Shown here: positions 91-13,681 of the stretch, piece by piece
Numbering within the stretch: the first letter of the stretch is position 1
How the letters are laid out: the number at the start of each line of letters is the position of its first letter
Source: a virus
Reading direction: 5' to 3' (one strand)
Length of the DNA stretch: 14,223 nucleotides
Virus genome (UHGV): UHGV-0138819
Program-made: the position numbers and the translations under genes
The notes under the pieces: model-generated
What the model was told of the DNA's origin: nothing
What the model saw: the letters and a program-made list of their open reading frames with translations, nothing else
Databases searched by the model: none

Positions 91-187
91 TTTATTAACG
101 CTATTGTAAAACTGCCGTTTTTCCTCGTTTACAACGGGTGCGCTGGACATTACCATCCTCCTCTGCGATTTATCATCGCAACCAAAC

Positions 188-258
188 GACTCGGGGTGCC
201 CTTCTGCGTGAAGGCTGAGAAATACCCGTATCACCTGATCTGGATAATGCCAGCGTAG
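188..258 (+). repeat. attL: native 5' portion of the thiM TPP riboswitch aptamer; left copy of the 71-bp imperfect direct repeat
   Basis: 188-258 equals 13557-13627 except at 206, 207 and 232. The left copy carries the bases I recall for the canonical E. coli thi-box (CUUCUGCGUGAAGG, GUAUCACC). Homology ends abruptly after 258. Confidence 0.8.
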
Positions 259-2549: not shown

Positions 2550-2759
2550 TCATTTTTCGTTTTCAGAAGAGTTAAACGTCTTAGAATAGGGGCAGGATTG
2601 AGAGCGAGTCATCAGGGTAAACAGGTAAACGCTGTTTTCGTAAGTGCAAAGCCTCTTCCCGCCCTGCAACTCCTGTTCGTCGGGGTTGCTCATGGTGATT
2701 TTGCTTGCCGCAGCATTAAAAGCCAGCAACATACCGCAAATCAACAGAATACCTCTCAT
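2550..2759 (-). CDS. Hypothetical small secreted protein (69 aa) with N-terminal signal peptide
   Basis: Strong SD (AAGGGGGAGA) just upstream of the ATG on the minus strand. N-terminus MRGILLICGMLLAFNAAAS looks like a signal peptide. Convergent with the 2110-2541 gene. Confidence 0.5.
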   Translation of the reverse strand: MRGILLICGMLLAFNAAASKITMSNPDEQELQGGKRLCTYENSVYLFTLMTRSQSCPYSKTFNSSENEK

Positions 2760-2927: not shown

Positions 2928-3692
2928 ATGGAGGCTGTTTTGAAAAAGATTCTTGCATTACCTCTTATGTTCTTTTCCTTCTCGTCCTTCTCTGAAGGCG
3001 TTTCGTCTACAGATGTACAACCATACCCTGAGTACCTGGCGGCCTATGTAAAAACGTTGATTGCTGCTGGATGTGAAGAAACATTGAAAGGCGGTTCTGA
3101 GGACGTATTGATCAAACGGGCAACGGAGGGAATGAAGAAGGGCACGACGGGTTACGATAATGTACACAATGCTATCGTGTTGGGGGCTGGTTTCGGTAAT
3201 GGACTGAAGGAAAAAGGAAAACTTATCACAAAAGAAAAAATCGCGATTGATAGTTGTGGTGGTGCAGCGGCCTATACCATGATGCAAAAAGAATTTATAA
3301 AAACGGTCGTTGCTAGTATGACTAATCCGGAACAATCGCAGGTTGCCGATAGTAAACCCAAAGTGCCAGCTTCTGATGATGCAATTTACCGTACAAAAGC
3401 ACTAGCTCTGGCTGAACTTTATAAAGCTAACGAGGTTGCAGCCGATGACAAAATTGGTGGTCGTAAGGTGGAAGTAACCGGAACTGTACAGGACATAACA
3501 AAAAATTTCACGGATGATGTAGTTCTTAAACTTGAAAGCGGTAATCGCTTCATGCCAGTCAGTCTGAGTATGTCTGATTCAGAAAAGGCGAAAGCGTCGA
3601 AATTGGAAAAGGGCCAGAAGATCACCGTGACTTGCGAAAAGATGCAGTTTTTCATCGGTGCACCGTCTGGCGGAAACTGCACCTTTAACTAA
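2928..3692 (+). CDS. Hypothetical secreted protein (~255 aa) with signal peptide and a possible OB-fold-like C-terminal domain
   Basis: Long ORF ending TAA 3690-3692. N-terminus MEAVLKKILALPLMFFSFSSFSEG looks like a signal peptide. Start ambiguous: ATG 2886, 2898, 2928, or TTG 2940 preceded by GGAGG at 2930-2934. The OB-fold resemblance is my guess. Confidence 0.6.
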   Translation: MEAVLKKILALPLMFFSFSSFSEGVSSTDVQPYPEYLAAYVKTLIAAGCEETLKGGSEDVLIKRATEGMKKGTTGYDNVHNAIVLGAGFGNGLKEKGKLITKEKIAIDSCGGAAAYTMMQKEFIKTVVASMTNPEQSQVADSKPKVPASDDAIYRTKALALAELYKANEVAADDKIGGRKVEVTGTVQDITKNFTDDVVLKLESGNRFMPVSLSMSDSEKAKASKLEKGQKITVTCEKMQFFIGAPSGGNCTFN

Positions 3693-3706
3693 TCTGTCAT
3701 ACGGTC

Positions 3707-3727
3707 TGCCGGGTAAAATTCCCGGCA
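3707..3727 (+). other. Hairpin just downstream of the cargo CDS (7-bp stem TGCCGGG/CCCGGCA, 7-nt loop), no U-tract
   Basis: Inverted repeat seen directly. Not followed by a T-run, so terminator function is uncertain. Confidence 0.3.
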
Positions 3728-4986
3728 ACTCATCTACCCCACCTCATGGATGTCCCTGCTATTTGACGATCCAGCTTACATGCTCTTGCTGAAAATATCT
3801 TACGGCTCTCTGGGCCAGGTGCCTGACGTGACAGACGATCCCTCAATAATTTCTTATCTTCTTGCTGAAATATCGCAGAGCCGACAGGCCCAGTAACGTA
3901 TTTCACCACTTCATCCCGTAGAGCATCACAGCAGGGAAAACTTGCCGCAATAGGGCATTCTACTGTTCGTTTTCTGGTCTATTTAACATAATGGTTCTTA
4001 TAAGTACTTGACTGGAATGGTCAGGTATTACTTTTCGGAACGTTGACGCGAAGCTGGGTACACAACAGCGATTTCACCAACAGAAGGAAAGCATTCAGGA
4101 GGATTCGAGGTGAGTTCTCTTGTTCAAGGATTTTGGATGAGTTTGCCTGGTCACCACACAATTTCAGGTTTCAGACCTTTGAGGCTGCCAGTGTGTCAAA
4201 CGCCATAAAAGCACTTTTTTCTGTTTACCAGCAGACACAAAGCCACTACACCGACGTTACCACAACGGGCTGAAGGTCTGCCATCACCTGGTGATATTCA
4301 CGAGCCTGACCGCCACTGTTTCGTACCATTTCCCAAAACAATGTAAACAGCCAACCCACCAATCCCTTCTACGCTCCACCAGAAGCGCTACAGTGCGTTA
4401 TCCCCCCAGATGTAAACTGACGTACCGATAATCCACGACATCCCACAGCGCGATACAGGAACCACCAGAGGACATCTGTTTTAGTTTTAATGTGTCTTTT
4501 TTATTTTTTGTAAAAAGATGGTTCAGAAAGTGGGTTGTGTTTAGCACCCATTCAATTGGCGGATTCGCCTAGGCCGCGCCATTACTGGCTTCGCTGCATG
4601 CACCACACCATAACGCCCATAGGTACAAACTTGTGATTTGTACGTTTAGTGACCACTTTAGCATGATTAACTACGGATTATAGGCTATTTGAGGTGTATT
4701 TAATCTACTTTGTTCGCAGGATAGCCAATGATAAAGATCATCCACCAAATTTTCACAGAAAACTAGTATAGGGTTGCCAATCTTCAGCCAGCGCGGAGAA
4801 TGGTCGGTATTTTCAGATGAAAGCGGGGGAGGGAGATGATCAATTCTCGGAGCGGATCAGGTGCCTGGACCGCCTCAGGTGTTGCCGTCGATTGTGCCAT
4901 TGAAGCATGACGCGGACATATCAAACCAGAAGTTTTCATCGGTACGTTGGTCGCTTGGATGACTTGGAAAATTCTCACCCGGTGAT

Positions 4987-5075
4987 ACCTGCACGATTTT
5001 CGTGTACCCACCCCCTCGATTTTCGAGCACCTACCTGCACGATTTTCGAGTAGGGGGTAGTCGATTTTCGAGCAC
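4987..5075. repeat. Iteron-like array: four CGATTTTCG-centred repeats at 22-23 bp spacing, followed by an AT-rich tract; candidate replication origin or protein-binding array
   Basis: CGATTTTCG at 4994, 5017, 5040 and 5062. ACCTGCACGATTTTCG is exact at 4987-5002 and 5033-5048. CGATTTTCGAGCAC is exact at 5017-5030 and 5062-5075. AATAATAATAAATAACAAT follows at 5076-5094. Confidence 0.55.
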
Positions 5076-5649
5076 AATAATAATAAATAACAATCTCCAT
5101 AAAAGAACTGATAAGAAAAGTACCTCCAGGTCGAGAGCACGGAATGACGGTTGGTCATTCTGTTAGTTTTAATAGTGATGCTTCTGCATCGCTCCGCTCT
5201 GCAATGGCTGGTCAGCCACTTCAGATATGTTTGTGGTAAGAAGCTCACCTTTGCTGACGTGAAACAGCCGCGCCATCTCGTGACCTTCTAACCCTCGTTA
5301 ACACATCGCTACGCTCTGTGACTCGGGTAACCCGACAGGCTACGCCAGAGAGCTACGCTCTCACTCTGTGTGGAAGCTGCGAACTTGTTCGCCATATGTG
5401 GATCGGAGCACGGCGGAGAGGACTGCTTTGCATCTGTCCGGTTCACTCCGGGGCGGCGCGGGTTGTCTAACTGACTTCCTCAGCGCCTCTCTACGGCGTT
5501 TAAATGGTGTGGGTAACACGATGGTACTGCTATAACGACGAGTCCCCGCAGAACGCGTCACAGAACGATCTAGCACTATTGACAAAGATTTTTTAAACTT
5601 GTAATGTTATGGTGATTATTATGCATTATAAAATGCTACATGATAATGA

Positions 5650-5678
5650 TTGCTATTTACAAACAAATCTGATACAAT
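5650..5678 (+). promoter_or_regulatory. Candidate sigma70 promoter for the 5824-10406 operon (TTGCTA, 17-bp spacer, TACAAT)
   Basis: -35 TTGCTA at 5650-5655 and -10 TACAAT at 5673-5678 in an AT-rich region about 145 bp upstream of the first operon ATG. Confidence 0.4.
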
Positions 5679-5823
5679 AGATTTTAGTAGGGTAATGATT
5701 TACCTACGAATCCTCGAATAATTCTGCCGTCATCACGACATTCCTTGTCAACCTCACGGCAATACAAAATGGGTTACAAATAGAACCTCCGCGAATAATT
5801 CTTTTAACAGAACGGAGAACCCA

Positions 5824-6270
5824 ATGAATAAACCAAAATCCCAACGTCTCGACCTGACCACTATGACAGGCGAGCAGATCGCTGATCTCATCCTGAACGG
5901 CAAATACACCAAATCAGCTTTGTGGGCCTTCATTAGTAGAAACGGCGGGGCAGACGCTGTACATGCTCGACTTCCTCAGATCGCCGTCTGCCTGCAAATC
6001 CTGAAGCAGGCGCGGAAGAAAGCGAAGCAGGCACGAGTGGTTAAGACGGTGCTGAAGCCTCTGAGCAATAAATATGCTGAGGGTAATTCCTTAACGCAAA
6101 TCCTGAATCCTGTGTTACAGGGCTACCGCGAGCTATATAGAGAAAAACTGAATCTGGACCTGACACCAGAACAGGTGATCTTGCTCTTGATCGCCACTGA
6201 TGGTGTGGAACGTCTGGAATCCTACGGTTACACCTGTGCGGGTGACTTCCCGACCGCAACCGCAGTCTAA
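5824..6270 (+). CDS. Hypothetical protein (148 aa), first gene of the rightward operon
   Basis: GGAGA 8 nt upstream of the ATG. No family recognised. Confidence 0.6.
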   Translation: MNKPKSQRLDLTTMTGEQIADLILNGKYTKSALWAFISRNGGADAVHARLPQIAVCLQILKQARKKAKQARVVKTVLKPLSNKYAEGNSLTQILNPVLQGYRELYREKLNLDLTPEQVILLLIATDGVERLESYGYTCAGDFPTATAV

Positions 6271-6357
6271 CAACACTGAACAAAACCTGAGCCGGTTCGC
6301 CTTTGGGCGACCACTGGCGGGAGGTCTTTTGTACCTAAAACGAGGAGGACAACTTGA

Positions 6358-6561
6358 ATGAACATCAAATTTCAACAGCACGTTTATCAGGCTCTACTAG
6401 CTGAGGCCAAAAGGCAGGACAAGCCCCTGGCACGGCTCTGTAATGAAATCTTGGAGACTGCCGCGAACATTTTCGACAACACACCAGACATCAAACCAGC
6501 ATTAGCCAGCAAGGCGACACTTTACGGAGAACAGAATGAGCAAACAGAACCGGGACAGTAA
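6358..6561 (+). CDS. Small putative ribbon-helix-helix (Arc/MetJ/CopG-like) DNA-binding protein (67 aa)
   Basis: AGGAGGA upstream of the ATG. N-terminal strand-like MNIKFQQ followed by two predicted helices (QALLAEAKRQ, PLARLCNEILETA). RHH assignment is by pattern only. Confidence 0.55.
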   Translation: MNIKFQQHVYQALLAEAKRQDKPLARLCNEILETAANIFDNTPDIKPALASKATLYGEQNEQTEPGQ

Positions 6562-7282
6562 GGATTTTGTAAAACTTGAATACAGCATTCTCGACCTTAC
6601 CGAGTACAACGGCCTGACCATTAATGGCAACATGAAAATTTTGCTATCTCTGGTTTACAGCTATGACAAAACAGGCAGAACTTATTACGAGTCTGTTGGC
6701 ATGATTGGTAAACGTTGCGGCTGCAAGCCCGAAGCCGTTCGTAATTTCAGGAACAAGCTTCGTGAAGCGGGAATGATCACTTTTGAGGAAGAGCAGGGGA
6801 GAACACACAAAATTTCTCCGGTCGAACTCGATCCATCGTTGATGGTTTTTCTTGACGATCATAATTCCACGCAGGTGAGTAATAGAAAAGTGGAAACCGA
6901 GGAGAGCGGTAAGAATGAGCAGAAACGTGATGTGGAATCTTTCGTGGTGGAACCTGCCGCGCCTGTTGCTGGAAAACCAGACGGCCTACCTGTTGTGGAT
7001 ATTCCTGTCGATGCTGATGTACCTGCCAATGATGATGCGGTGAACGCTTCTGATAGGTATACCGATGAACAATTAGGCACCAAGCTGAGGCGATGGCGCA
7101 ATTGGGGACTGGATGAAGAAGCAAAAGCGTTTTGTCTCTCTCATGGTATCAGCAGCGATGAGGACAGCATGAATCTGTTTATTCAAAATTATCATGTACC
7201 CGCACCGGAGTCAGTAGAACAACAGGTTAACGCCCCAGCAGATGAGCTGCCGCTTGATTATGATGACTCGATCCCTTTCTGA
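6536..7282 (+). CDS. Hypothetical protein (248 aa) with a putative winged-helix DNA-binding segment and acidic C-terminal region; candidate replication initiator or regulator
   Basis: GGAGA 5 nt upstream of the ATG. Overlaps the previous ORF by 26 nt. Segment YESVGMIGKRCGCKPEAVRNFRNKLREAGMI resembles wH/HTH domains. C-terminal half is D/E-rich. Confidence 0.55.
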   Translation: MSKQNRDSKDFVKLEYSILDLTEYNGLTINGNMKILLSLVYSYDKTGRTYYESVGMIGKRCGCKPEAVRNFRNKLREAGMITFEEEQGRTHKISPVELDPSLMVFLDDHNSTQVSNRKVETEESGKNEQKRDVESFVVEPAAPVAGKPDGLPVVDIPVDADVPANDDAVNASDRYTDEQLGTKLRRWRNWGLDEEAKAFCLSHGISSDEDSMNLFIQNYHVPAPESVEQQVNAPADELPLDYDDSIPF

Positions 7283-7296
7283 TACTGGAGGAATAA

Positions 7297-7818
7297 TTGT
7301 GTGATGTTGCCAACAGCCTGACGGCTGAAACCCTTACGGTGCGAAGCACTTTACCAGAGGTAAACAAATCCGGTGCTGACGCCCCTGATTTGTCCCGTTT
7401 TTACAAGGCCCGCTCTCGTGATACCTCGTTGATCGAGACTGCTAAAAAAATGCTCGTTCACGGTTACACCCCAGGCAAAACGGCGCTGCTCCTACGCTTG
7501 CCGTATGACCTGGTAAAAGGCCTTTACGATAACTCGTGGAATCCTCGCTGTCGCAAGATAAGTAATACCAGTCAGTACGCTACTAAGCGAATGGCCCGAA
7601 TGTACTACGAATCCGGCGCAATGCTGGCAAAAATCTGTGCTGACCTTCAACTGCCTCTATTCACTGTGGTAACGCTGCTCAAGCGTGAAGGAATCACTGA
7701 AAAAGAAATGGCATCTCGAATGCCTGTTAGTGATGATCCGTTGTTCATTGAGTACCGGAAGACTATTTCACGCAAGCAGGCAGCGCCCCAACGCCGATCA
7801 CCACGACTGCATTATTAA
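7297..7818 (+). CDS. Hypothetical protein (173 aa), possible tandem HTH-like segments
   Basis: TTG start 5 nt after GGAGG (7287-7291). No family recognised. Confidence 0.5.
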   Translation: MCDVANSLTAETLTVRSTLPEVNKSGADAPDLSRFYKARSRDTSLIETAKKMLVHGYTPGKTALLLRLPYDLVKGLYDNSWNPRCRKISNTSQYATKRMARMYYESGAMLAKICADLQLPLFTVVTLLKREGITEKEMASRMPVSDDPLFIEYRKTISRKQAAPQRRSPRLHY

Positions 7819-7836
7819 TACCCCAGCCGGGGAAAC

Positions 7837-8265
7837 TTGACCCTATTTGAATATTTATCCTTTCTGCCGTTAGCGGTAGCTGTTCTCCAATGGCTTCGTG
7901 ACGGCCTGGACCTCTACAGGAAACATAACAATATGAATAACATTGAAGCAATCCGCGCCAGTATCCGGGAAGCAATGACCGCAGGAACAGACGAACCGGA
8001 AGATCTGAACAAATCCGCTGAAGAAGCATTGGCGGAGGCGGTGCAGAGTTACCTGTCCGCTTCGACTGCAACAGCCAGCGAGCCAGCCCCAAAAAGTGGT
8101 AAAACCATCAAGGAAAAAGGGATCGCTCTGTGCCACCAAGCCCAAGGTTATAGCGCTAATCTGCGTCCGGTAAGTCTCATGATGAAGGCAAGTCTTGATG
8201 AGCTAACACCTGAACAACGCGCCGCGCTTGAGCGTCTGGGTTACGATATCAATCAGGGGGTGTGA
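7837..8265 (+). CDS. Hypothetical protein (142 aa from TTG 7837, or 111 aa from ATG 7933)
   Basis: TTG 7837 preceded by GGGGA. In-frame ATG at 7933 preceded by AGGAAA. Its stop TGA (8263-8265) overlaps the next ATG (8265-8267). Confidence 0.5.
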   Translation: MTLFEYLSFLPLAVAVLQWLRDGLDLYRKHNNMNNIEAIRASIREAMTAGTDEPEDLNKSAEEALAEAVQSYLSASTATASEPAPKSGKTIKEKGIALCHQAQGYSANLRPVSLMMKASLDELTPEQRAALERLGYDINQGV

Positions 8266-10406
8266 TGTCTGGCACAAATAAGATTGTTACCAGCACCGTT
8301 AATGAAATCTCGTGGATCACAGACGATGCCTCATATCAAAAAGCCAAAAAGAAGATTATCTCGCTTAAGGCTGCTCATGAGAAACCAGCTAAAGCGCTTG
8401 AGAAGGCCCAGAAGCGGACCGTCCAGAGTGAAGGCAAAGCAGCACTAGCCGCAGCGAAAGCCCAGACAGCGAAGCTACGCCAGGCTGAACAATTGTCAAA
8501 ACAGCAACAGAAACAAGCTCAGATACAAGCCAAAATGGAACGGGATGCAGTCTCCCACGCTAATAAAATGACCTCATTACAGGCGCGTCAGTTATCCCAG
8601 CAGGAACAGGCCGCACGGCAGAATGCCAGACTAGCAGCGATATCTGACAAGGTGAGACAGGCGAGTCGCTCCCGTGCAATGACCTACAATCCCAACATGC
8701 CTGGAGTTCACTCCGATCCATCTCTGGTGGCACGTCAAAATGCAGCGATGAACCGTGGTCACGGCGCTGTTGCTGCTGACATCGCAGCCACCAAAAAGGC
8801 GATGGCCTTGGAGGAGAAGCGTCAGCGTGAGAAAGAGGCAGGCCTTAAGCGCGAGGTGACTTATTACAACAGTTTGCGCCGTAGCGCTCTGACTCTGGCA
8901 AACGTGAACGGCGCTGACGTTGCAACCCGGTACAAAGCCATCAGTGCAGCAAAAGAGGCACTTAAAGCCCAGAAAGAAGAGCGCTATACGGTTGAAGAGA
9001 CCCGCTTCGAAATGGCTCGTATCACCACCGAATTACGCAAGCAGGCTCGTCTGCAACAGCGTATGACCCGTGAGCAGAAAGCCGCAGGTGTTCGTGCTGG
9101 TCGTGTACGCACAGAAAGCCGTGGTGGTAGAGCTGGTCTTGCAGCTGCTGGTGTTATTGGTGGTGCGTCGTTAGTGGGTAGTATGGGCGTTTCTCGTGTC
9201 GGTCAGACCCTCCAGGGAAGCCTTGAGCGCTCTCGCGATGTGAAAAAACTCCAGCAGTACGGGATCAGCAACCTTGAGTTCGCTGCACTTCAGGATCTCT
9301 CGATGAGCCGTGTTGGTTACTCACTGAGTGCTGACAAGCTGGCTGACCTCAACAAGGACACAACCGAAAAGGCCGGGGAATTGTTAAACACCGGCTCTTT
9401 CAAACGTAACAAGAAAACTGGACAGGTGAATTTCAGCGGCGGTGGCGAGTTCGCAGATATCATCAACAATGTGCTGACCTCCACCAACGGTAACCAGAAG
9501 GTAGCACAGAAGGTGATCGGAGAACTGCAAAAGCTGGATTTTCCGACCTTCATCACTTACCTGAAACAGTTGCAGAAAACTTTCAAATGGACGGACAACC
9601 AGACCCGGCACCTGGCTGAGGCTGTGAATGATGGTTCGGTCTTCCTCGAAGTGTTCAATGATGAGGGGCAGGGACTTATCCAGCGTATGCATCAACTCTC
9701 TTCTGAAGGATGGACCCTATCTGATGCGCAGCAAGCCAACCTCGATAAACTGGCGGCGTTAGGTGCTGAGTACAACCGAGTGCAAACCAGCCTTGCAGAT
9801 CATTTCTCAGCCTCGTTTGTTGAAGGCCTGGGGCAGTACGCTGCCAATACTGAAACTCTACGTCAGAAGATGACTGGACTGATCCCAATTTCCGATGCCC
9901 TCGGCGTTGCCCTTGGTGAGCTAACCACCAACATTCTCTCCTTCTCTGGTCGAGTCGGTGAAGAACTTAAGAAAGGCGCGACATTGCCGGATGCGGTGTA
10001 TACGAGCGTGGTAGATGAATCTGCAAACGGTGCTGCCGATTGGATTAAGGAAAAGACAGGCTTTGATCCACGTAGCATCGGTCAGACGCTTAAGCAGATT
10101 TACCCGTGGCTGGATAGTTCAGCACCGAGCAATATTGGCTCAGGCACGGCGTATAACGATCCAGCGCTAGCGTTGAATGTTCCTAGCCTGAACTATCTGA
10201 CACCCCAGCAACCGACGTTTACGGTTCCGACAATTGACAGCATGACGCTGCGACAGCCGATTCCTGTCAGTGTTACCGGGCAAGCGAACATTAATCAGCA
10301 GATGGATGTGTTTGTCCATGACGATAAGATCGCAGGGCTGGTTGATACCAAGATAAGGGAGAACAACCACGCGCAGAATAACCTCATCCTTGGGATTGCA
10401 GACTAA
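8265..10406 (+). CDS. Large hypothetical protein (~713 aa): Ala/Lys/Gln-rich coiled-coil N-terminal ~300 aa, Gly-rich hydrophobic segment, unrecognised C-terminal region
   Basis: Uninterrupted 2.1 kb ORF with start overlapping the upstream stop (TGATG). Hydrophobic GLAAAGVIGGASLVGSMGV mid-protein. No Walker A, no relaxase HxH motif, no primase zinc-finger pattern seen. Confidence 0.7.
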   Translation: MSGTNKIVTSTVNEISWITDDASYQKAKKKIISLKAAHEKPAKALEKAQKRTVQSEGKAALAAAKAQTAKLRQAEQLSKQQQKQAQIQAKMERDAVSHANKMTSLQARQLSQQEQAARQNARLAAISDKVRQASRSRAMTYNPNMPGVHSDPSLVARQNAAMNRGHGAVAADIAATKKAMALEEKRQREKEAGLKREVTYYNSLRRSALTLANVNGADVATRYKAISAAKEALKAQKEERYTVEETRFEMARITTELRKQARLQQRMTREQKAAGVRAGRVRTESRGGRAGLAAAGVIGGASLVGSMGVSRVGQTLQGSLERSRDVKKLQQYGISNLEFAALQDLSMSRVGYSLSADKLADLNKDTTEKAGELLNTGSFKRNKKTGQVNFSGGGEFADIINNVLTSTNGNQKVAQKVIGELQKLDFPTFITYLKQLQKTFKWTDNQTRHLAEAVNDGSVFLEVFNDEGQGLIQRMHQLSSEGWTLSDAQQANLDKLAALGAEYNRVQTSLADHFSASFVEGLGQYAANTETLRQKMTGLIPISDALGVALGELTTNILSFSGRVGEELKKGATLPDAVYTSVVDESANGAADWIKEKTGFDPRSIGQTLKQIYPWLDSSAPSNIGSGTAYNDPALALNVPSLNYLTPQQPTFTVPTIDSMTLRQPIPVSVTGQANINQQMDVFVHDDKIAGLVDTKIRENNHAQNNLILGIAD

Positions 10407-10440
10407 AATCATCGTTCCGTCGAAAATGGCGCAGCAAATT

Positions 10441-10460
10441 GGCCCACACGAGAGAGGGCC
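10441..10460 (+). terminator. Weak terminator-like hairpin after the 714-aa gene
   Basis: GGCCC (10441-10445) pairs with GGGCC (10456-10460) around a 10-nt loop, followed by a T-rich stretch (GTTATTGTTTTTGTTGTTG). Confidence 0.25.
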
Positions 10461-10490
10461 GTTGAATTCGCCATGTTATTGTTTTTGTTG

Positions 10491-10520
10491 TTGCAAATGA
10501 TAATCATTCGTGTTAAAATA
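10491..10520 (+). promoter_or_regulatory. Fur-box-like palindrome (AATGAT-A-ATCATT) overlapping a candidate sigma70 promoter (TTGCAA, 18-bp spacer, TAAAAT)
   Basis: Perfect 6-1-6 inverted repeat at 10495-10507 inside 10493-10511, about 14/19 match to the Fur consensus GATAATGATAATCATTATC as I recall it. -35 TTGCAA 10491-10496, -10 TAAAAT 10515-10520. Confidence 0.35.
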
Positions 10521-10926
10521 ATATACAAGGTGAATTACAACAGCCAAATGTTTTCCCTTCTCCTTAGGAATCAAAGTGCGCTTTTCCCAGAGCGCCTTTT
10601 CTCATACAGCCAATATTCGCACCCTCTCACGGTAAGGTTAGGCCATTGCCGCTGGCTGTATCAGAAAAGATTTTCTCCGACCTTGGATCGGGGATTTGCC
10701 AAAGCCTTTCATCCTCGGAAGGCCGTCTTGCCAGACGAAAACTGGCATTGAGTGCGGCAGCGAAGATATGAGGTCTCCCGCTGCTGTGCTCCCTCATTCC
10801 TGAAGCGTGACCCGCCGATCATGCTTTCCAAATCTCTCCATCAGAAAATACCATCGTGAAGCTATTAGCAACGCATGTTGCTAACCCGTAAACGGGTGAA
10901 TTTCATCATCTCCGATGATCTACCAA

Positions 10927-10962
10927 CCGGGGCAGGCGTTTTCCTGCCTCCGGCTCTTTTTC
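10927..10962 (+). terminator. Terminator-like hairpin (CCGGGGCAGG / CCTGCC-T-CCGG) followed by CTCTTTTTCT
   Basis: About 10-bp GC-rich stem with one bulge, T-rich tract a few nt downstream. Confidence 0.4.
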
Positions 10963-10984
10963 TGTTGGGAATACAAATAAAAGA

Positions 10985-11010
10985 ATGCCGTCCGATGGAC
11001 GGTATTTTTT
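10985..11010. terminator. Rho-independent terminator, probably bidirectional
   Basis: Stem ATGCCGTCC / GGACGGTAT with loop GAT, then TTTTT on the plus strand. The plus-strand AAATAAAAG just upstream gives a U-rich tract on the minus strand. Confidence 0.6.
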
Positions 11011-11049
11011 CAACACAACCCGGCATATTCGCCGGATTATAAAAATTGC

Positions 11050-11412
11050 ATGGAGATACAACAAAATATGGCATTCGAACATGAAAGCAAAACCCCACAG
11101 GATGTATTGGTTTATACCGATAGCCCGATCTTTCATAAGCGCACCGTGATCTTTGATCTGGCTGCTGATGTGACTTGTGGTGATGTGATTAACCCGACCA
11201 CTGGCGCGGCATACGTTGCAGCCGATGCTGATAACTGTGCTGTAGCTCTGCAAAATCAAATCGCTGGTGATGCCCGTAGCCTGGTCATTTCAGACCGTGG
11301 CTGTGTGTTCAATCCATCTGGTCTGGTTGTAGCGGCTGCTGCAAAAGATGCTGCTTACGCTGCCCTTGTTAAGCAAGGCAACCGCATTGCTGACGCAAAC
11401 ACTGCAATCTAA
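11050..11412 (+). CDS. Putative phage head decoration-like protein (120 aa, or 114 aa from ATG 11068)
   Basis: Small Ala/Gly/Val/Asp-rich protein immediately upstream of a ~340-aa capsid-like ORF, the lambda D-E arrangement. Product call is inference from size, composition and gene order. GGAGA at 11052-11056 fits the 11068 start. Confidence 0.5.
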   Translation: MEIQQNMAFEHESKTPQDVLVYTDSPIFHKRTVIFDLAADVTCGDVINPTTGAAYVAADADNCAVALQNQIAGDARSLVISDRGCVFNPSGLVVAAAAKDAAYAALVKQGNRIADANTAI

Positions 11413-11430
11413 TCAAGGAGTGATAACAAT

Positions 11431-12447
11431 ATGAAATTAAGTGATTTTACTAACCTTTCCGGTCAGTTTGTGAAGCCAAGCGGCGAGGGGTTCCTTCTGT
11501 CCAGCCTGGGGATCTTTACCAGCCGTCCAAGTGATACGCAAATCATCGCGCTCGACACACTGGAAGATGTGCAGCGTGAAGTGACCAAATCTGTTGCCCG
11601 TTATGGTTCTGAAATGTCCGGTCTAAACTTCCCTAAAGCGGCTAACGTGACTGTTCAGGCTCCACTGCATGTCTACAGCTCAACCATCACCAGCCAGGAT
11701 TGGCAGGGGAAACGTCAGCCGGGAACAAATCGCCAGATGACCGCTGAAGATGTAGTTGCTAATCATACCCTGAAGCACTACCTGCAAACCCGCCGTGATG
11801 TTGAATATGCCATGGCGCAGAGCCTGCTTCACAATACTGTAGAGGCGACACACCTTCGTGAAGGTCCTGATCTGAACTGGCAAACCTTCTGGGGTATTAA
11901 CCAGCCGTCTGCTGTGGTGAAAACTGGCATCAGTGCCAACGTTATTACTGAGATGCAGAACGCTGTCACGCTGCTGAAGAAAAATCTGGGTGGCTGGTCT
12001 TCCAGCATCAAGCAGGTTTATCTGCTAGCGAGTCCGAGTCTTTTCACCGCCATTCAAGGCAACCCAACCGCATATCAGGCGGCTCTGTTTGGTGCTACGT
12101 CCCGTGACATCATTTTCCCTGACACTTTGGGCGCATATGATCGATACAACATCGGGCGCGTAACTGTAGTTCAGGTTGACGATCCGCTATACGGCATTGC
12201 AGATGGTGAAGGCTACATGCTGGCGACGTTCTCCAATGTTGTTGAAGGCGACCTTTCACCTTATATGACTTACCAGACTCCGGCGAGCCGTCATGCTGAC
12301 GTTGCTAATGGTCCGGTTTATCCGTCTTACCATTACGTTCTGCGTGATAAGTTCATGAATTATGAGGTGGTCAGCGAGCTATCACAAATTCAGATCCCAA
12401 TGCGTCCAGACTTCGTTTTGAAAATTACGATGGATGACGCGGCGTAA
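11431..12447 (+). CDS. Putative major capsid protein (338 aa), possibly lambda gpE-like
   Basis: AGGAG upstream of the ATG. Length and position after the small decoration-like ORF fit a major capsid protein. Family assignment not verified. Confidence 0.6.
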   Translation: MKLSDFTNLSGQFVKPSGEGFLLSSLGIFTSRPSDTQIIALDTLEDVQREVTKSVARYGSEMSGLNFPKAANVTVQAPLHVYSSTITSQDWQGKRQPGTNRQMTAEDVVANHTLKHYLQTRRDVEYAMAQSLLHNTVEATHLREGPDLNWQTFWGINQPSAVVKTGISANVITEMQNAVTLLKKNLGGWSSSIKQVYLLASPSLFTAIQGNPTAYQAALFGATSRDIIFPDTLGAYDRYNIGRVTVVQVDDPLYGIADGEGYMLATFSNVVEGDLSPYMTYQTPASRHADVANGPVYPSYHYVLRDKFMNYEVVSELSQIQIPMRPDFVLKITMDDAA

Positions 12448-12509
12448 GACAGCGTATTTTGGGGGCGCATTGCCCCCGCTGCAGGCGAGCCAAAGGAAAG
12501 GAGATACAT

Positions 12510-12722
12510 ATGAAATTAGCTTTGATCGGTACTGGCAACATGCCGCTGATGCAGTGGATTCTAGATGGCAAGGGCGATGATGCGATTATCAACATGTCAG
12601 CGTTAGCACGCAGGCTTGAGTGTAGTCGTTCCAGCCTACTTGACCGCATCCATACGCATGGATTCGACAGCGCTATTAGGTACTACCTCAACGAACAGCG
12701 ACAACGAAAACTGAAAACATGA
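12510..12722 (+). CDS. Small HTH-like protein (70 aa); candidate DNA-binding, excisionase or packaging accessory
   Basis: Strong SD (AAGGAAAGGAGA) 6 nt before ATG 12510. The ORF track extends it to 12459, but the SD supports 12510. INMSALARRLECSRSSLLDRI resembles a helix-turn-helix. Confidence 0.55.
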   Translation: MKLALIGTGNMPLMQWILDGKGDDAIINMSALARRLECSRSSLLDRIHTHGFDSAIRYYLNEQRQRKLKT

Positions 12723-12723
12723 G

Positions 12724-12749
12724 AGCCGGGTTAATCCCGGCTTTTTTTA
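12724..12749. terminator. Strong rho-independent terminator shared by convergent genes
   Basis: AGCCGGG-TTAAT-CCCGGCT followed by 7 T (12743-12749), 1 nt after the plus-strand stop. The hairpin overlaps the last codons and stop of the minus-strand CDS. Confidence 0.8.
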
Positions 12750-13366
12750 TGTACTTTGCTGAAGTCAAAAAGATTGTCAAATTTAATGATATCTAATCCA
12801 GAGATAGCGTGATTAACATCTTTCATCATTGCGCCATGTTCATCATAAGCGTTACGTATTGCCATGAATTCTTCTGGTGTTATCTGTGCTTTAAGCAAAG
12901 CCTGCATGATGAGAGTCATCAGTTTTGAGATGGCTATTTGCGTATTACCAGAAGATCGAAGAAGGGCGTTGAATGGCTCCCAGGAAACCTTTTTAATCAG
13001 AACATTATAGTGACTTAACTTGATGAAAGAGCTACCAATGCGAAAGGTATTTTCCGTCATATCTTTCAAGGATTCTTGAATATGATAATAGCTTTCTTCG
13101 TCGGCTTTTTGTCCTGATTTCGCCAGTGTGTCGAGAAAAGTCATAATGCGGTTTAAGTCAAAGCGCATACGATTGTAACGGCTTCTGGTGCTATCAATTT
13201 CTTCTTTAAGAGCGATTGCTGAATCAATTGCCCGCTCCATTTTTCTCGTCTTCACAATCTCCTGAAGTTTAACCCCTCCGAAGATGACGCCGCCAACCAC
13301 ACTCAACGCTGTTACAGCATTCGAAGCGATAGAGATAATGTTATCCCATGCTTGTAAATCCATCAT
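12731..13366 (-). CDS. Hypothetical membrane-anchored protein (211 aa) with one N-terminal transmembrane helix; candidate exclusion or defence gene
   Basis: AAGAGG SD before the ATG on the minus strand. N-terminus IISIASNAVTALSVVGGVIFGGV looks like a TM helix. Appears AT-rich by eye. Convergent with the capsid operon, adjacent to attR. Confidence 0.65.
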   Translation of the reverse strand: MMDLQAWDNIISIASNAVTALSVVGGVIFGGVKLQEIVKTRKMERAIDSAIALKEEIDSTRSRYNRMRFDLNRIMTFLDTLAKSGQKADEESYYHIQESLKDMTENTFRIGSSFIKLSHYNVLIKKVSWEPFNALLRSSGNTQIAISKLMTLIMQALLKAQITPEEFMAIRNAYDEHGAMMKDVNHAISGLDIIKFDNLFDFSKVHKKSRD

Positions 13367-13435: not shown

Positions 13436-13556
13436 CCTGTCACACATAGACCAAAAGGGCCGCTTTTACCGTTTACAAGACTTCCCGCTGGCATTACTAT
13501 CCTGATCAGGGATTAATGAGGAGCATTAATCGCAAGCTTTTGATTTTATAGTACAT

Positions 13557-13627
13557 GACTCGGGGTGCCCTTCTTTGTGAAGGCTGAGAAATACCCGTAT
13601 TACCTGATCTGGATAATGCCAGCGTAG
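13557..13627 (+). repeat. attR: element-derived riboswitch-like 5' arm plus shared core; right copy of the 71-bp direct repeat
   Basis: Differs from 188-258 at three positions (TT for GC at 13575-13576, T for C at 13601). Canonical host sequence resumes after 13627 (GGAAGTCACGG...). Confidence 0.8.
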
Positions 13628-13681
13628 GGAAGTCACGGACCACCAGGTCATTGCTTCTTCACGTTATGGCAGGAGCAAACT
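13557..13681 (+). promoter_or_regulatory. TPP (thi-box) riboswitch in the thiM 5' leader, hybrid of element-derived 5' aptamer half and host 3' half plus expression platform
   Basis: GGGGTGCCCTTCT..GTGAAGGCTGAGAAATACCCGTAT.ACCTGATCTGGATAATGCCAGCGTAGGGAAGTCACGGACCACCAGGTCATTGCTTCTTCACGTTATGGCAGGAGCAAACTATG matches the E. coli thiM riboswitch as I recall it, apart from three substitutions in the 5' half. Confidence 0.85.

What the first reader, a model, noticed from the sequence alone, without database searches (positions are those of the whole stretch)
5824..8265. Operon of five small proteins including an RHH-like and a winged-helix-like protein, with no recognisable enzymatic domains
The genes are tightly packed with overlaps at 6536-6561 and 8263-8267, implying translational coupling. 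The RHH-like 67-aa protein and the wH-like 248-aa protein with an acidic tail are reminiscent of regulator-plus-initiator modules, but none matches a family I can name. This block probably holds the element's regulatory and replication logic.
Basis: partly seen in the sequence, partly recalled or inferred. Interest (0 to 1): 0.45.

Follow-up and report, generated by a model that had tools for sequence, protein, structure and literature searches.

The report
Satellite island's replication-plus-capsid operon
The five genes are real and are the front of a longer operon in a 13-kb mobile island of E. coli that looks like an undescribed phage satellite: the first four look like its control and DNA-replication genes, including an origin-binding protein whose tail copies the tip of the host's SSB protein, and the fifth belongs to its capsid-building genes.

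Summary
Five same-strand genes lie at 5824-8265 with the stated overlaps, no enzymatic domain is recognised, and relatives show purifying selection. The operon does not stop at 8265: it is coupled (TGATG) to a 713-aa tape-measure homolog.

The window is a ~13.4-kb island inserted in the thiM TPP riboswitch. It belongs to an Enterobacterales family with an integrase, a capsid protein and a decoration protein, but no recognisable portal, protease or terminase.

- **g2 (67 aa):** ribbon-helix-helix (profile hit to AvtR, E 1.8e-4).
- **g3 (248 aa):** a modular lambda-O/DnaD-like winged-helix initiator. Its N-domain type co-varies without exception with the iteron sequence 1.5 kb upstream across 19 islands, while g1, which lies between them, does not. 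In all 19 the iterons abut an AT-rich stretch.
- **g3 tail (..LDYDDSIPF):** in the whole PDB it matches only SSB C-termini, so recruitment of host SSB partners such as PriA, DnaG or chi is inferred.
- **g1 and g4:** family-specific. g1 is helical; g4 has two helix-turn-helix motifs. Function unresolved.
- **g5:** carries the N-terminal motif of the scaffold-position protein of rV5/phiTE-like myoviruses (76% over 38 aa), so it is morphogenetic rather than regulatory.

The parts
4986..5075 (.). Four iterons spaced 22-23 bp apart, each with a dyad core (CACGA-TTT-TCGTG or CTCGA-TTT-TCGAG). Proposed binding sites of g3 and the specificity part of the origin.
   Evidence: repeat families D1/D2; sequence. 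The iteron class co-varies with the g3 N-domain type in 19 loci.
5076..5125 (.). AT-rich stretch (78% AT) directly after the iterons. Proposed DNA-unwinding element.
   Evidence: In 19 of 19 loci a 50-nt window of 68-84% AT follows the array on the same side. In most relatives it carries (A)ATAAGATC repeats.
5650..5678 (+). Candidate promoter P2 (TTGCTA, 17-nt spacer, TACAAT, with extended -10 TG). A second candidate, P1, is TTGACA, 17-nt spacer, TAATGT at 5579-5607.
   Evidence: scan; sequence; the motif CACTATTGACAAAGATTT is conserved in class-1 relatives. These are consensus matches only.
5711..5802 (+). 5' leader holding the two 11-bp repeats CGAATAATTCT (5714-5724 and 5791-5801). The second repeat lies in the loop of a predicted hairpin that pairs CCUCCG with the g1 Shine-Dalgarno sequence.
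   Evidence: family D4; repeats conserved in L002, L009 and L021; fold, z -2.6. Role unknown.
5824..6270 (+). g1, 148 aa. All-helical protein specific to this family; function unresolved.
6358..6561 (+). g2, 67 aa. Ribbon-helix-helix DNA-binding protein: strand NIKFQ, two helices, then a disordered tail. Its last 26 nt overlap g3.
   Evidence: Alignment A5. The profile hits AvtR (4hv0), a tandem-RHH regulator, at E 1.8e-4. Weak phrog_11622 'transcriptional regulator' hit.
6536..7282 (+). g3, 248 aa. Modular initiator with four parts:
- a winged-helix N-domain (about residues 1-100);
- a conserved acidic, proline-rich linker;
- a small C-domain;
- an SSB-Ct-like tip, ..APADELPLDYDDSIPF.
   Evidence: HTH_36 at E 4.6e-4 and DnaD_N. 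Six replication-initiator PHROGs. Modular alignment A1. Survey of C-terminal tails. The only PDB hits to the tail are SSB C-termini.
7297..7818 (+). g4, 173 aa. Two helix-turn-helix-like three-helix units (residues 43-78 and 93-130), a C-terminal helix, and a conserved basic tail RKQxxPQRRSPRLHY. DNA-binding protein of unknown role.
   Evidence: Alignment A3. AF2 model. Foldseek against PDB and BFVD found nothing significant, only generic HTH proteins. Only 43 representatives among 1.84 billion proteins. Weak Sigma70_r4 hit in a distant homolog.
7837..7932 (+). Conserved hydrophobic micro-ORF (MTLFEYLSFLPLAVAVLQWLRDGLDLYRKHNN). Here it is in frame with g5 and gives the 142-aa form. In most relatives it is a separate, overlapping frame.
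   Evidence: ORFs between g4 and g6 in 16 loci.
7933..8265 (+). g5, 110 aa (RefSeq start). Small morphogenetic protein carrying the N-terminal motif of the phiTE_211 / rV5 gp4-type protein that sits in the scaffold position.
   Evidence: phrog_2970 at E 2.7e-16. PF26210 is precomputed on the 99%-identical L006 product. BLASTP to phage nomine gp4 residues 7-41: 76% identity, E 9e-18. Gene context in phages. 321 phage records carry the motif.
8265..10406 (+). g6, 713 aa. Tape-measure-protein homolog, translationally coupled to g5 and part of the same operon.
   Evidence: Tape-measure PHROGs. TMP_3 (PF20155) at E 1e-23 in the L006 homolog. 31% identity to the tape-measure protein gp168 of Klebsiella phage FBKp34. 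The L020 homolog aligns from residue 1 of that protein.
11068..12447 (+). Context: head decoration protein (11068-11412) and major capsid protein (11431-12447) of the same island.
   Evidence: HDPD and Phage_cap_E, both weak. phrog_29 at E 2.5e-9. RefSeq names it 'major capsid protein'. 21-23% full-length identity to the rV5-like capsid protein.

Best explanation
The five genes are the promoter-proximal part of one long operon (g1-g6, 5824-10406) of a ~13.4-kb integrative element. The element looks like a capsid-gene-bearing phage satellite.

**Replication and control half (g1-g4)**
- g3 is the element's replication initiator. Its winged-helix N-domain is proposed to bind, as dimers, the four dyad-symmetric iterons at 4986-5075. 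These abut an AT-rich unwinding region, an arrangement like the lambda origin.
- Behind a disordered acidic linker, g3 displays a copy of the SSB C-terminal tip (LDYDDSIPF, compared with MDFDDDIPF in SSB).
- I infer that an origin-bound cluster of such tips recruits host proteins that normally dock on SSB (PriA, DnaG, Pol III chi). The element would then need no helicase, primase or loader of its own.
- g2 is a ribbon-helix-helix DNA-binding protein made from the overlapping upstream cistron. This is the same layout as the CopG-RepB regulator-plus-initiator pair, so it most likely sets the level of operon or initiator expression.
- g1 (helical) and g4 (two HTH motifs plus a basic tail) are family-specific. 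Their most likely roles are further DNA-binding or control functions: switching the element on, activating the capsid genes, or redirecting packaging.

**Morphogenetic half (g5, with g6)**
- g5 carries the N-terminal motif of the scaffold-position protein of rV5/phiTE/phi92-like myoviruses, and g6 is a tape-measure homolog.
- g5 is inferred to act as a mini-scaffold, or to connect the island's own capsid protein to helper head-assembly parts.

**Shown:** gene structure, conservation, fold-level assignments, iteron/N-domain co-variation, origin architecture, the SSB-tail match and the scaffold-motif match.

**Inferred:** DNA binding itself, recruitment through the tail, the regulatory role of g2, the roles of g1, g4 and g5, and helper dependence.
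For: **Operon and genes**
- Coordinates, couplings and ribosome-binding sites.
- Conserved synteny in about 20 islands from Enterobacter, Citrobacter, Klebsiella-group, Pantoea, Rahnella and other genera.
- Purifying selection.

**g3 as initiator**
- HTH_36 at E 4.6e-4 and a DnaD_N hit.
- phrog_186 'DnaD-like helicase loader' at 5.6e-6, plus five 'replication initiation / O-like' PHROGs and no terminase PHROG.
- One homolog is named 'Replication protein' by UniRef; other homologs carry PF13730 or PF22182.

**Specificity test across 19 loci**

| Pairs of loci | Number | g3 N-domain identity | g1 identity |
|---|---|---|---|
| Same iteron class | 18 | 67-95% | median 35% |
| Different iteron class | 153 | 9-55% | median 37%, up to 95% |

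g1 lies physically between the iterons and g3, so the match is not simple linkage.

**Origin architecture**
- Four dyad iterons.
- They are followed in 19 of 19 loci, always on the same side, by a 68-84% AT stretch.

**SSB tail**
- The last 29 aa searched against 177,635 PDB sequences return only two hits. Both are SSB proteins, and in the E. coli SSB entry (1eqq/4mz9) the match runs to the last residue.
- 34 of 101 full-length cluster representatives end in an acidic stretch plus IP[FY], and 10 more end in xP[FY]. This tail occurs behind N-domains of at least five unrelated types.
- SSB-Ct (DDDIPF) is the docking motif for DnaG, chi, PriA, ExoI and others (PMC5872125).

**g2**
- Profile hit to the RHH protein AvtR at E 1.8e-4.
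- The 26-nt overlap with g3 is conserved even where the g3 N-domains differ.

**g5 and g6**
- Evidence: - phiTE_212 is the decoration protein (PMC12846349), so phiTE_211 is the gene just upstream of it.
Against: - No binding, replication or expression experiment exists; everything is comparative.
- The window protein itself is below Pfam's gathering score for HTH_36 (20.4 against 25 bits). It does not hit Phage_rep_O or DUF6945.
- A profile search against PDB finds only generic winged-helix regulators at E about 0.1.
- The SSB-like tail is not universal. More than half of the representatives end in other conserved tails (..EEIDAAVALM..DFDMATTCDFL..QKHSGGLNCVNT..EKNFKLQR). The tail is therefore one of several interchangeable modules.
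- The SSB match is short (E 0.19-0.43).
- No operator could be tied to g2. Neither the promoter-region variant nor the 11-bp repeats follow the g2 type.
- g1 and g4 gave nothing in any search.
- g6 is missing in about a third of the islands, so the g5-g6 pairing is not obligatory.
- A second g5 type has no phage match.
- Satellite status and the identity of the helper are untested. IMG/VR gave only 5 loci and no clear virion-derived complete genomes.
Confidence: 0.62

Rival explanations
1. g3 and the repeats form a packaging-recognition pair rather than a replication pair. On this view g3 is a small-terminase-like protein (as lambda Nu1 binds the R sites of cosB) that marks the island's DNA for the helper's large terminase, and its C-terminal tail docks on that terminase.
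For: - Small terminases also have an N-terminal (winged) HTH, bind repeated sites, and use a C-terminal tail to bind a partner (established knowledge of lambda Nu1).
- The island has no recognisable terminase.
- Swapping of the N-domain together with its site, as seen, would be equally expected for packaging-site specificity.
Against: - All six PHROG hits are replication-initiator families, and none is a terminase.
- The array is followed in every locus by an AT-rich stretch typical of an unwinding element.
- The tail matches SSB, a replication hub, and not any terminase-binding motif.
- A UniRef source names a homolog 'Replication protein'.
Confidence: 0.1
2. g2 and g3 are transcription regulators only (repressor or activator, with the iterons as an operator array). 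The element is then copied passively, or by helper or host functions recruited in another way. The SSB-like tail acts as a decoy that titrates host or helper SSB partners, serving interference rather than initiation.
For: - The structural neighbours of the HTH in PDB are transcription regulators (Lrp, GntR/FadR, MarR, ArsR).
- RHH proteins are typically repressors.
- A decoy role for an SSB tip is chemically as plausible as a recruiting role (one search lists the many partners).
Against: - The repeats lie about 750 bp upstream of the operon and 500 bp or more from the candidate promoters, next to an AT-rich block. They do not overlap a promoter.
- HMM affinities are to initiators.
- A mobile element with an integrase and capsid genes but no other replication gene needs an initiator.
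Confidence: 0.12
3. The whole five-gene block is regulatory and replicative, including g5 (for example as a helicase-loading or partition factor).
For: g5 is in the same operon and is tightly packed with g4 and g6.
Against: - g5 shares a 38-aa motif at 76% identity with the N-terminus of the protein encoded between the prohead protease and the decoration and capsid genes in rV5-like and phi92-like phages.
- Its family is Pfam Phage_phiTE_211.
- It is coupled to a tape-measure homolog.
Confidence: 0.05
4. The region is a decaying prophage remnant whose ORFs no longer function.
For: - Nearly all products are annotated 'hypothetical'.
- No portal, protease or terminase is recognised.
- g6 is deleted in several relatives.
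Against: - The same gene order is kept with intact ORFs in about 20 islands of many genera, at three or more different integration sites and with different integrases.
- dN/dS is mostly 0.1-0.45.
- Matched swapping of iterons and N-domains implies continuing selection for function.
- Intact att repeats are present.
Confidence: 0.03

Closest known systems
Phage lambda O protein and the lambda origin (iteron-binding initiator of lambdoid phages)
   Same: - N-terminal winged-helix DNA-binding domain, flexible linker, and a C-terminal partner-binding part.
- Four iterons, each with internal dyad symmetry, followed directly by an AT-rich region.
- N-domain and iterons change together between relatives.
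- PHROG 'replication initiation O-like' hits.
   Different: - No match to Pfam Phage_rep_O.
- The origin lies 1.5 kb upstream of the gene, not inside it.
- There is no P-type helicase loader. Instead the C-terminus ends in an SSB-Ct-like tip or one of several alternative tails.
DnaD-like / HTH_36 (PF13730) and DUF6945 (PF22182) phage and island replication proteins
   Same: The same kind of N-terminal HTH. Several g3 homologs in sister islands carry these domains at Pfam thresholds. phrog_186 'DnaD-like helicase loader' is the best PHROG hit.
   Different: The window's own N-domain (the KQNRDSKDFVKLEY type) scores below the HTH_36 cut-off and does not match DUF6945. It is a further N-domain type on the same chassis.
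CopG-RepB cassette of plasmid pMV158 (a small RHH repressor co-transcribed with the initiator; from established knowledge)
   Same: A ribbon-helix-helix protein of about 45-70 aa is encoded immediately upstream of, and expressed together with, the replication initiator.
   Different: RepB is a rolling-circle HUH nuclease, whereas g3 is an iteron-binding winged-helix protein. No operator for g2 could be identified here, and the cassette sits inside a longer operon.
E. coli SSB C-terminal tip (SSB-Ct, ..PMDFDDDIPF)
   Same: g3 ends ..APADELPLDYDDSIPF and SSB ends ..AAPSNEPPMDFDDDIPF. In E. coli SSB the match runs to the last residue, it is preceded by a disordered linker, and SSBs are the only PDB hits. 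SSB-Ct is a docking motif for PriA, DnaG, chi and ExoI.
   Different: g3 has no OB-fold and is not an ssDNA-binding protein. The tip is attached to a sequence-specific dsDNA-binding domain. The two literature searches I ran on SSB-Ct found no initiator with this tail.
Capsid-forming PICIs (cf-PICIs) and other phage satellites (P4, PICI, PLE)
   Same: A small integrative island (about 13 kb) with an integrase, its own replication module and its own capsid gene, but without a full virion gene set. Accessory genes sit at a variable hot spot.
   Different: No portal, protease, head-tail connector or small terminase of the cf-PICI set was recognised. There is no P4 Sid/Psu/alpha and no PICI AlpA/Pri-Rep. 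Instead the island has a lambda-E/D-type capsid and decoration pair, a scaffold-motif mini-protein and a tape-measure homolog.
phiTE_211 / rV5-like gp4 / FBKp34 gp180 (protein between the prohead protease and the decoration and capsid genes; 'possible scaffold')
   Same: g5 residues 58-95 are 76% identical to residues 7-41 of phage nomine gp4. Pfam PF26210 is precomputed on the near-identical L006 protein. phrog_2970 hits at E 2.7e-16.
   Different: g5 is 110 aa against 326-446 aa, and only the N-terminal motif is shared. A possible second short similarity to the C-terminal end has E 0.07. The long middle part is absent, and no function of the phage protein has been shown.

Membership tests
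Lambda O-type initiator (Pfam Phage_rep_O, PF04492) | Sequence match to the Phage_rep_O N-terminal domain | tested here: not met
   No PF04492 hit at E <= 1. Only PHROG 'O-like' families at 2.8e-4 and 3.2e-3.
Lambda O-type initiator (works-like) | An array of about four dyad-symmetric iterons next to an AT-rich region, with a specificity matched to the initiator's N-domain | tested here: met
   Iterons at 4986-5075 and 78% AT at 5076-5125. Perfect separation of N-domain identity by iteron class in 171 locus pairs.
Lambda O-type initiator (works-like) | Origin located inside the initiator gene, and a partner helicase loader (P) | tested here: not met
   The origin is 1.5 kb upstream of g3. No P, DnaC or helicase homolog was found in the island.
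HTH_36 (PF13730) / DnaD-like | Score at or above the Pfam gathering threshold (25 bits) | tested here: inconclusive
   The window protein scores 20.4 bits, E 4.6e-4. Sister-island homologs carry PF13730 in the precomputed annotation.
DUF6945 (PF22182) | Match to the DUF6945 domain | tested here: not met
   No hit for the window protein. The L003 homolog hits at 2.6e-13. This is a different N-domain type on the same chassis.
Ribbon-helix-helix superfamily (CopG/Arc/MetJ) | N-terminal beta-strand followed by two helices, with detectable similarity to a solved RHH protein | tested here: met
   Alignment A5 shows the pattern. The profile hits AvtR (4hv0) at E 1.8e-4 over residues 1-45. No Pfam RHH family hit, so this holds at superfamily level only. 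The dimeric fold was not modelled.
SSB-Ct-bearing proteins (SSB interactome hub) | Extreme C-terminus with acidic residues followed by I-P-F, behind a disordered linker | tested here: met
   ..LDYDDSIPF. The only PDB hits are SSBs; in E. coli SSB the match reaches the last residue. 34 of 101 representatives carry it.
SSB-Ct-bearing proteins (SSB interactome hub) | Physical binding of the tip to PriA, chi, DnaG, ExoI or similar | not testable with these tools
   Needs peptide-binding assays or genetics.
Phage_phiTE_211 (PF26210) / phrog_2970 | Match to the family model | tested here: met
   phrog_2970 at E 2.7e-16 over profile positions 15-66 of 354. PF26210 is precomputed on the 99%-identical L006 product, but that model is absent from the local Pfam copy. 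The match is partial, covering the N-terminal motif only.
Capsid-forming PICI | Own portal, prohead protease, head-tail connectors and small terminase in addition to the capsid protein | tested here: not met
   None were recognised by Pfam, PHROGs or NCBIfam in any island ORF tested. Only capsid, decoration, scaffold-motif and tape-measure proteins were found.
Phage satellite (general) | Helper-dependent induction, packaging and transfer | not testable with these tools
   Indirect evidence only: the gene content, att repeats, multiple integration sites and structural genes related to rV5/phi92-like phages.

The most novel reading that the evidence does not exclude
The element belongs to an undescribed family of Enterobacterales phage satellites with two unusual features.

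1. Replication: a modular initiator clusters copies of the SSB C-terminal tip at the origin. This would mimic SSB-coated DNA and so capture the host's PriA, primase or clamp-loader machinery without any helicase, primase or loader of its own. The DNA-binding heads and the recruiting tails are both interchangeable.
2. Morphogenesis: the satellite builds its own small capsid from only a capsid protein, a decoration protein and a mini-scaffold that copies the N-terminal motif of the scaffold of large virulent rV5/phiTE/phi92-like myoviruses. That motif points to those phages as its helpers.
Probability: 0.3. Interest if true: 0.78.

Novelty: new variant of a known kind. Interest (0 to 1): 0.58.

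Why it matters
- **Replication.** If the reading is right, the operon shows a minimal way for a mobile element to start replication. An origin-binding head is fused to a short linear motif taken from the host's SSB hub, and both heads and tails are exchangeable. Recruitment of replisome parts through short motifs is known for plasmid initiators (for example clamp-binding motifs), but I found no report of an SSB-tip version. The idea is directly testable with peptides and point mutants.
- **Satellite biology.** The operon also links replication genes to a very reduced head-assembly set. This suggests a satellite family that targets large virulent myoviruses used in phage therapy (rV5-like and phi92-like), where satellites are almost unknown outside the PLE-ICP1 system of Vibrio.
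- **Annotation.** The work gives working names to a set of 'hypothetical proteins' present in 39 of 5,426 complete E. coli genomes and in many other Enterobacterales.

Tried and rejected
- **g4.** Foldseek against PDB (best E 0.46) and BFVD (best E 0.03) returned only generic tandem-HTH proteins. A full HMMER profile search of 1.84 billion representatives returned only 43 family members, with no informative domains. There was no phage match. The idea that g4 is a lambda-P-like loader or a small terminase could be neither supported nor excluded.
- **g3 against PDB.** The profile search found only weak winged-helix regulators.
- **g2 operator.** I tested whether the 11-bp repeats or the promoter variants are the g2 operator. 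They follow the g1/leader class, not the g2 type (L009, L017 and L021 are the informative cases), so no operator was assigned.
- **Noncoding region.** Rfam on the 2.3-kb region 3600-5900 found no family.
- **Standalone episomes.** Some homolog contigs are about 13 kb long. Of the three I checked, none has a terminal overlap; L004 also carries flanking chromosomal genes (thiM/thiD-like) and L006 ends near its integrase. This gives no evidence of circular episomes.
- **Virome evidence.** IMG/VR gave 5 loci, four of them on larger contigs (26-62 kb) and one a 4.7-kb fragment, which is uninformative.
- **Second g5 type.** It has no match in phages.
- **afdb50 fold library.** It was not available.
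- **Literature.** Searches on DUF6945, on satellites with capsid, decoration or tape-measure genes, and on SSB-Ct found no description of this island family or of an SSB-tailed initiator. The library is not exhaustive.

Full report
**1. What the window is**

The region 5700-8400 is 100% identical to two complete E. coli chromosomes (NZ_CP123310 and NZ_CP171637), and parts of it occur in 39 of 5,426 complete genomes. In NZ_CP123310 the window corresponds to a block between rcnR and thiM. The block is bounded by a ~72-nt direct repeat, the 3' part of the thiM TPP riboswitch, at window ~186-257 and ~13576-13647. It is therefore a ~13.4-kb integrated element.

Its genes, in order:
- a tyrosine integrase (320-1702);
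- a few small accessory genes;
- a ~2.1-kb stretch without annotated genes (3700-5820);
- the operon under study;
- a 640-bp gap;
- a lambda-gpD-like decoration gene and a lambda-gpE-type major capsid gene;
- a small gene that is conserved across the related islands, 12459-12722, and a variable gene on the minus strand.

No portal, protease, terminase or tail gene other than a tape-measure homolog was recognised.

**2. The observation**

The five ORFs and both overlaps are exactly as described. Every start has a Shine-Dalgarno-like sequence. Spacings are +87, -26, +14 and +18 nt, then -1 (TGATG) into the next gene. Only one weak terminator-like site lies inside the operon on the + strand. No enzymatic domain was found in four HMM libraries.

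Two corrections:
- The operon continues into a 713-aa gene (8265-10406).
- The fifth ORF is annotated by RefSeq from the ATG at 7933 (110 aa). The 32 codons upstream (7837-7932) encode a hydrophobic peptide that is conserved in relatives. In most of them it is in a different frame from g5, so it behaves as a separate micro-ORF.

**3. A family of islands**

Related islands were collected in four ways: with the g3 protein, with two contig look-ups, with two further E. coli records, and with a genome-wide scan using a capsid-protein alignment. This gave about 20 islands from Enterobacter, Citrobacter, Pseudocitrobacter, Silvania, Pantoea, Winslowiella, Rahnella, Biostraticola, Buttiauxella, Kluyvera and others. 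They are inserted at tRNA-Gly, tRNA-Thr, thiM and other sites, with different integrases.

The shared core is: a small secreted-looking gene on the minus strand; about 2 kb of mostly noncoding DNA with an iteron array; g1 to g5; usually g6; then the decoration gene, the capsid gene and a small HTH-like gene.

Identities range from about 25% to 99% and are mosaic. dN/dS for the five genes is mostly 0.1-0.45. These are real, selected genes.

**4. g3 is the initiator, and the iterons are its sites**

*Sequence affinities.* g3 hits HTH_36 (E 4.6e-4, below the Pfam cut-off) and DnaD_N. It also hits six PHROGs, all annotated as replication initiation, O-like or DnaD-like, the best at 5.6e-6. The PDB profile search found only generic winged-helix regulators.

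*Modular build.* The alignment of homologs shows:
- at least six mutually unrelated N-terminal HTH domains (among them DUF6945 and HTH_36 types);
- a conserved acidic, proline-rich linker (EESGKNEQK..AAPVAGKPDGVPVVDIPVDADVPANDDA);
- variable C-terminal modules.

*The origin.* At 4986-5075, about 750 bp upstream of g1, lie four 22-23-bp-spaced repeats, each with a dyad core (CTCGA-TTT-TCGAG). They are followed at once by 50 nt of 78% AT. Every related island has a repeat array at the equivalent position, but with a different sequence.

*The co-variation test.* I classified the arrays into eight classes and compared them with the first 100 residues of g3.

| Pairs of loci | Number | g3 N-domain identity | g1 identity |
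|---|---|---|---|
| Same iteron class | 18 | 67-95% | median 35% |
| Different iteron class | 153 | 9-55% | median 37%, up to 95% |

The highest values in the 'different' group come from a pair of related sub-types. g1 lies between the array and g3 and shows no such relation. For example, the window's g1 is 88% identical to that of L009, which has other iterons and another N-domain. It is only 33% identical to that of L004, which has the same iterons and the same N-domain type. Recombination has shuffled the intervening gene while the head and its site stayed matched. That is the signature of a specific protein-DNA pair.

*Conserved architecture.* In 19 of 19 loci the array is followed, always on the same side, by a 68-84% AT stretch. 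This often carries (A)ATAAGATC repeats, then a conserved AGGTCAAG box and a hairpin. Variable specificity repeats next to a conserved unwinding-type region is origin architecture, close to that of the lambda origin.

**5. The acidic tail is an SSB tip**

g3 ends ..APADELPLDYDDSIPF. Searching its last 29 residues against all 177,635 distinct PDB sequences returned only two hits, both SSB proteins. In the E. coli SSB entry (..AAPSNEPPMDFDDDIPF) the match runs to the very last residue (E 0.19-0.43, as expected for so short a query).

Among 101 full-length cluster representatives, 34 end in acidic residues plus IP[FY], and 10 more end in xP[FY]. Examples are QWDEKIPF, DEDDPEIPF, DFSGESIPF, YEYDETIPF and EEEDSIPY. 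This tail occurs behind N-domains of at least five unrelated types. The rest carry one of four other conserved tails.

The SSB hexapeptide DDDIPF is the docking site for DnaG, Pol III chi, PriA, ExoI and more than ten other proteins (PMC5872125). My inference, which is not shown, is that g3 dimers on four iterons present a cluster of SSB-like tips beside the unwinding region and thereby recruit host replisome-loading proteins. This would explain why the island has no helicase, primase or loader gene. The other tails would be alternative recruiting modules. The two literature searches I ran on SSB-Ct found no initiator with such a tail.

**6. g2**

The family alignment shows the pattern strand (NIKFQ), helix, turn, helix. 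The profile hits the archaeal-virus regulator AvtR, a tandem ribbon-helix-helix protein, at E 1.8e-4 over residues 1-45. The 26-nt overlap with g3 is kept in islands whose g3 N-domains are unrelated. This fits obligatory co-expression, as in the CopG-RepB cassette.

I could not identify its operator. The 11-bp repeats (CGAATAATTCT at 5714-5724 and 5791-5801) and the promoter-region variants follow the g1/leader class rather than the g2 type.

**7. g1 and g4**

- **g4** has two three-helix HTH-like units, a C-terminal helix and a conserved basic tail.
- Foldseek with the g4 model against PDB and BFVD found only generic tandem-HTH proteins, none significant.
- A full HMMER search of 1.84 billion representatives found 43 g4 relatives, all apparently of the same family. 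One gave a weak Sigma70_r4 signal on the second HTH.

Their roles are unresolved. The candidates are the switch, activation of the capsid genes, and packaging redirection.

**8. g5 and g6 are morphogenetic**

- g5 hits phrog_2970 (E 2.7e-16). The 99%-identical L006 product carries Pfam Phage_phiTE_211.
- tblastn finds its motif in 321 phage records. These include rV5-like Escherichia phages and phages of Erwinia, Klebsiella, Cronobacter, Pectobacterium, Vibrio and Campylobacter.
- In phage nomine the match is 76% identity between g5 residues 58-95 and residues 7-41 of gp4.
- gp4 lies between a small gp3 and the decoration (gp5) and capsid (gp6) genes.
- In Klebsiella phage FBKp34 the equivalent gene follows the XkdF-type protease and is annotated 'possible scaffold'.
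- phiTE_212 is the phiTE decoration protein (PMC12846349), which places phiTE_211 at the same position.
- g6 is a tape-measure homolog. The L006 homolog has TMP_3 at E 1e-23. g6 is 31% identical to the FBKp34 tape-measure protein gp168, and the L020 homolog aligns from residue 1 of that protein.
- The island's capsid protein is 21-23% identical over its full length to the rV5-like capsid protein.

The 3' end of the 'five-gene block' therefore belongs with head and tail assembly. g5 most likely acts as a mini-scaffold or as an adaptor to helper head-assembly parts (inference). g6 is absent from about a third of the islands, and a second g5 type has no phage match.

**9. Comparison and verdict**

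- The g2-g3 pair with the origin works like a lambda-O-type iteron replicon with a CopG-like companion. It is not a member of Phage_rep_O, it has its origin outside the gene, and it lacks a P-type loader.
- The island as a whole resembles a capsid-forming satellite but fails the cf-PICI gene set, and I found no description of it.
- I rate the finding as a new variant of a known kind.

Noticed in passing
window 186-257 and 13576-13647: A ~72-nt direct repeat with 3 mismatches forms the island's ends. It is the 3' part of the thiM TPP riboswitch, so the element integrates into a riboswitch and rebuilds it. Rfam calls a full TPP aptamer only at 13551-13647, although RefSeq annotates both copies.
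   Followed up: partly
window 7837-7932: A conserved micro-ORF for a ~30-aa hydrophobic, single-pass-like peptide followed by basic residues lies between g4 and g5. It is in frame with g5 here and in L006 and L008. It is out of frame and overlaps the g5 start in L002, L004, L009, L010, L012, L014 and L018-L021. Function unknown.
   Followed up: partly
window 4000-5800: The 'noncoding' stretch upstream of the operon is conserved at DNA level in 5-8 of 21 related loci, as well conserved as the coding genes. Peaks are at 4200-4400 and 5200-5400. Apart from the origin, its content is unexplained, and Rfam found no family.
   Followed up: partly
window 5685-5835: The g1 leader is predicted to fold (-31.2 kcal/mol, z -2.6) so that CCUCCG pairs with the g1 Shine-Dalgarno sequence. 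The second 11-bp repeat lies in that loop. The stem sequences recur in class-1 relatives with different loops. This may be translational control of g1.
   Followed up: partly
window 8265-10406; L008, L012, L014, L018, L019, L021, L017: The tape-measure homolog g6 is deleted in six related islands (in L008 only a 65-aa C-terminal stump remains) and is disrupted or inverted in L017. It is therefore dispensable or frequently lost.
   Followed up: partly
window 10406-11050: The 640-bp gap between g6 and the decoration gene holds terminator-like hairpins (10578-10595 and 10929-10950). ORF translations in this gap recur in divergent islands, which suggests a conserved noncoding element or the promoter region of the capsid genes.
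   Followed up: no
window 12731-13366 (minus strand); L004 9287-10186; L003 4002-4637 and 15072-15650: Variable accessory genes sit beside the conserved core. Downstream of the small post-capsid gene there is a 211-aa protein here, an AbiTii-domain protein in L004 and a GNAT acetyltransferase in L003; L003 also carries a DUF4145 protein at its other (tRNA-Thr) end. This looks like the defence or accessory cargo spot typical of satellites. PADLOC gave only a marginal hit for the window protein.
   Followed up: partly
window 2550-2759 (minus strand): A 69-aa protein with a signal-peptide-like N-terminus is conserved in nine related islands, just upstream of the noncoding stretch. It is part of the family core, and its function is unknown.
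   Followed up: no
g3 homologs (P0001-P0108): Besides the SSB-like tip, g3 homologs end in four other conserved tails: ..EEIDAAVALM, ..DFDMATTCDFL, ..QKHSGGLNCVNT or ..GGIIV, and ..EKNFKLQR. These may be alternative docking motifs for other host proteins.
   Followed up: partly
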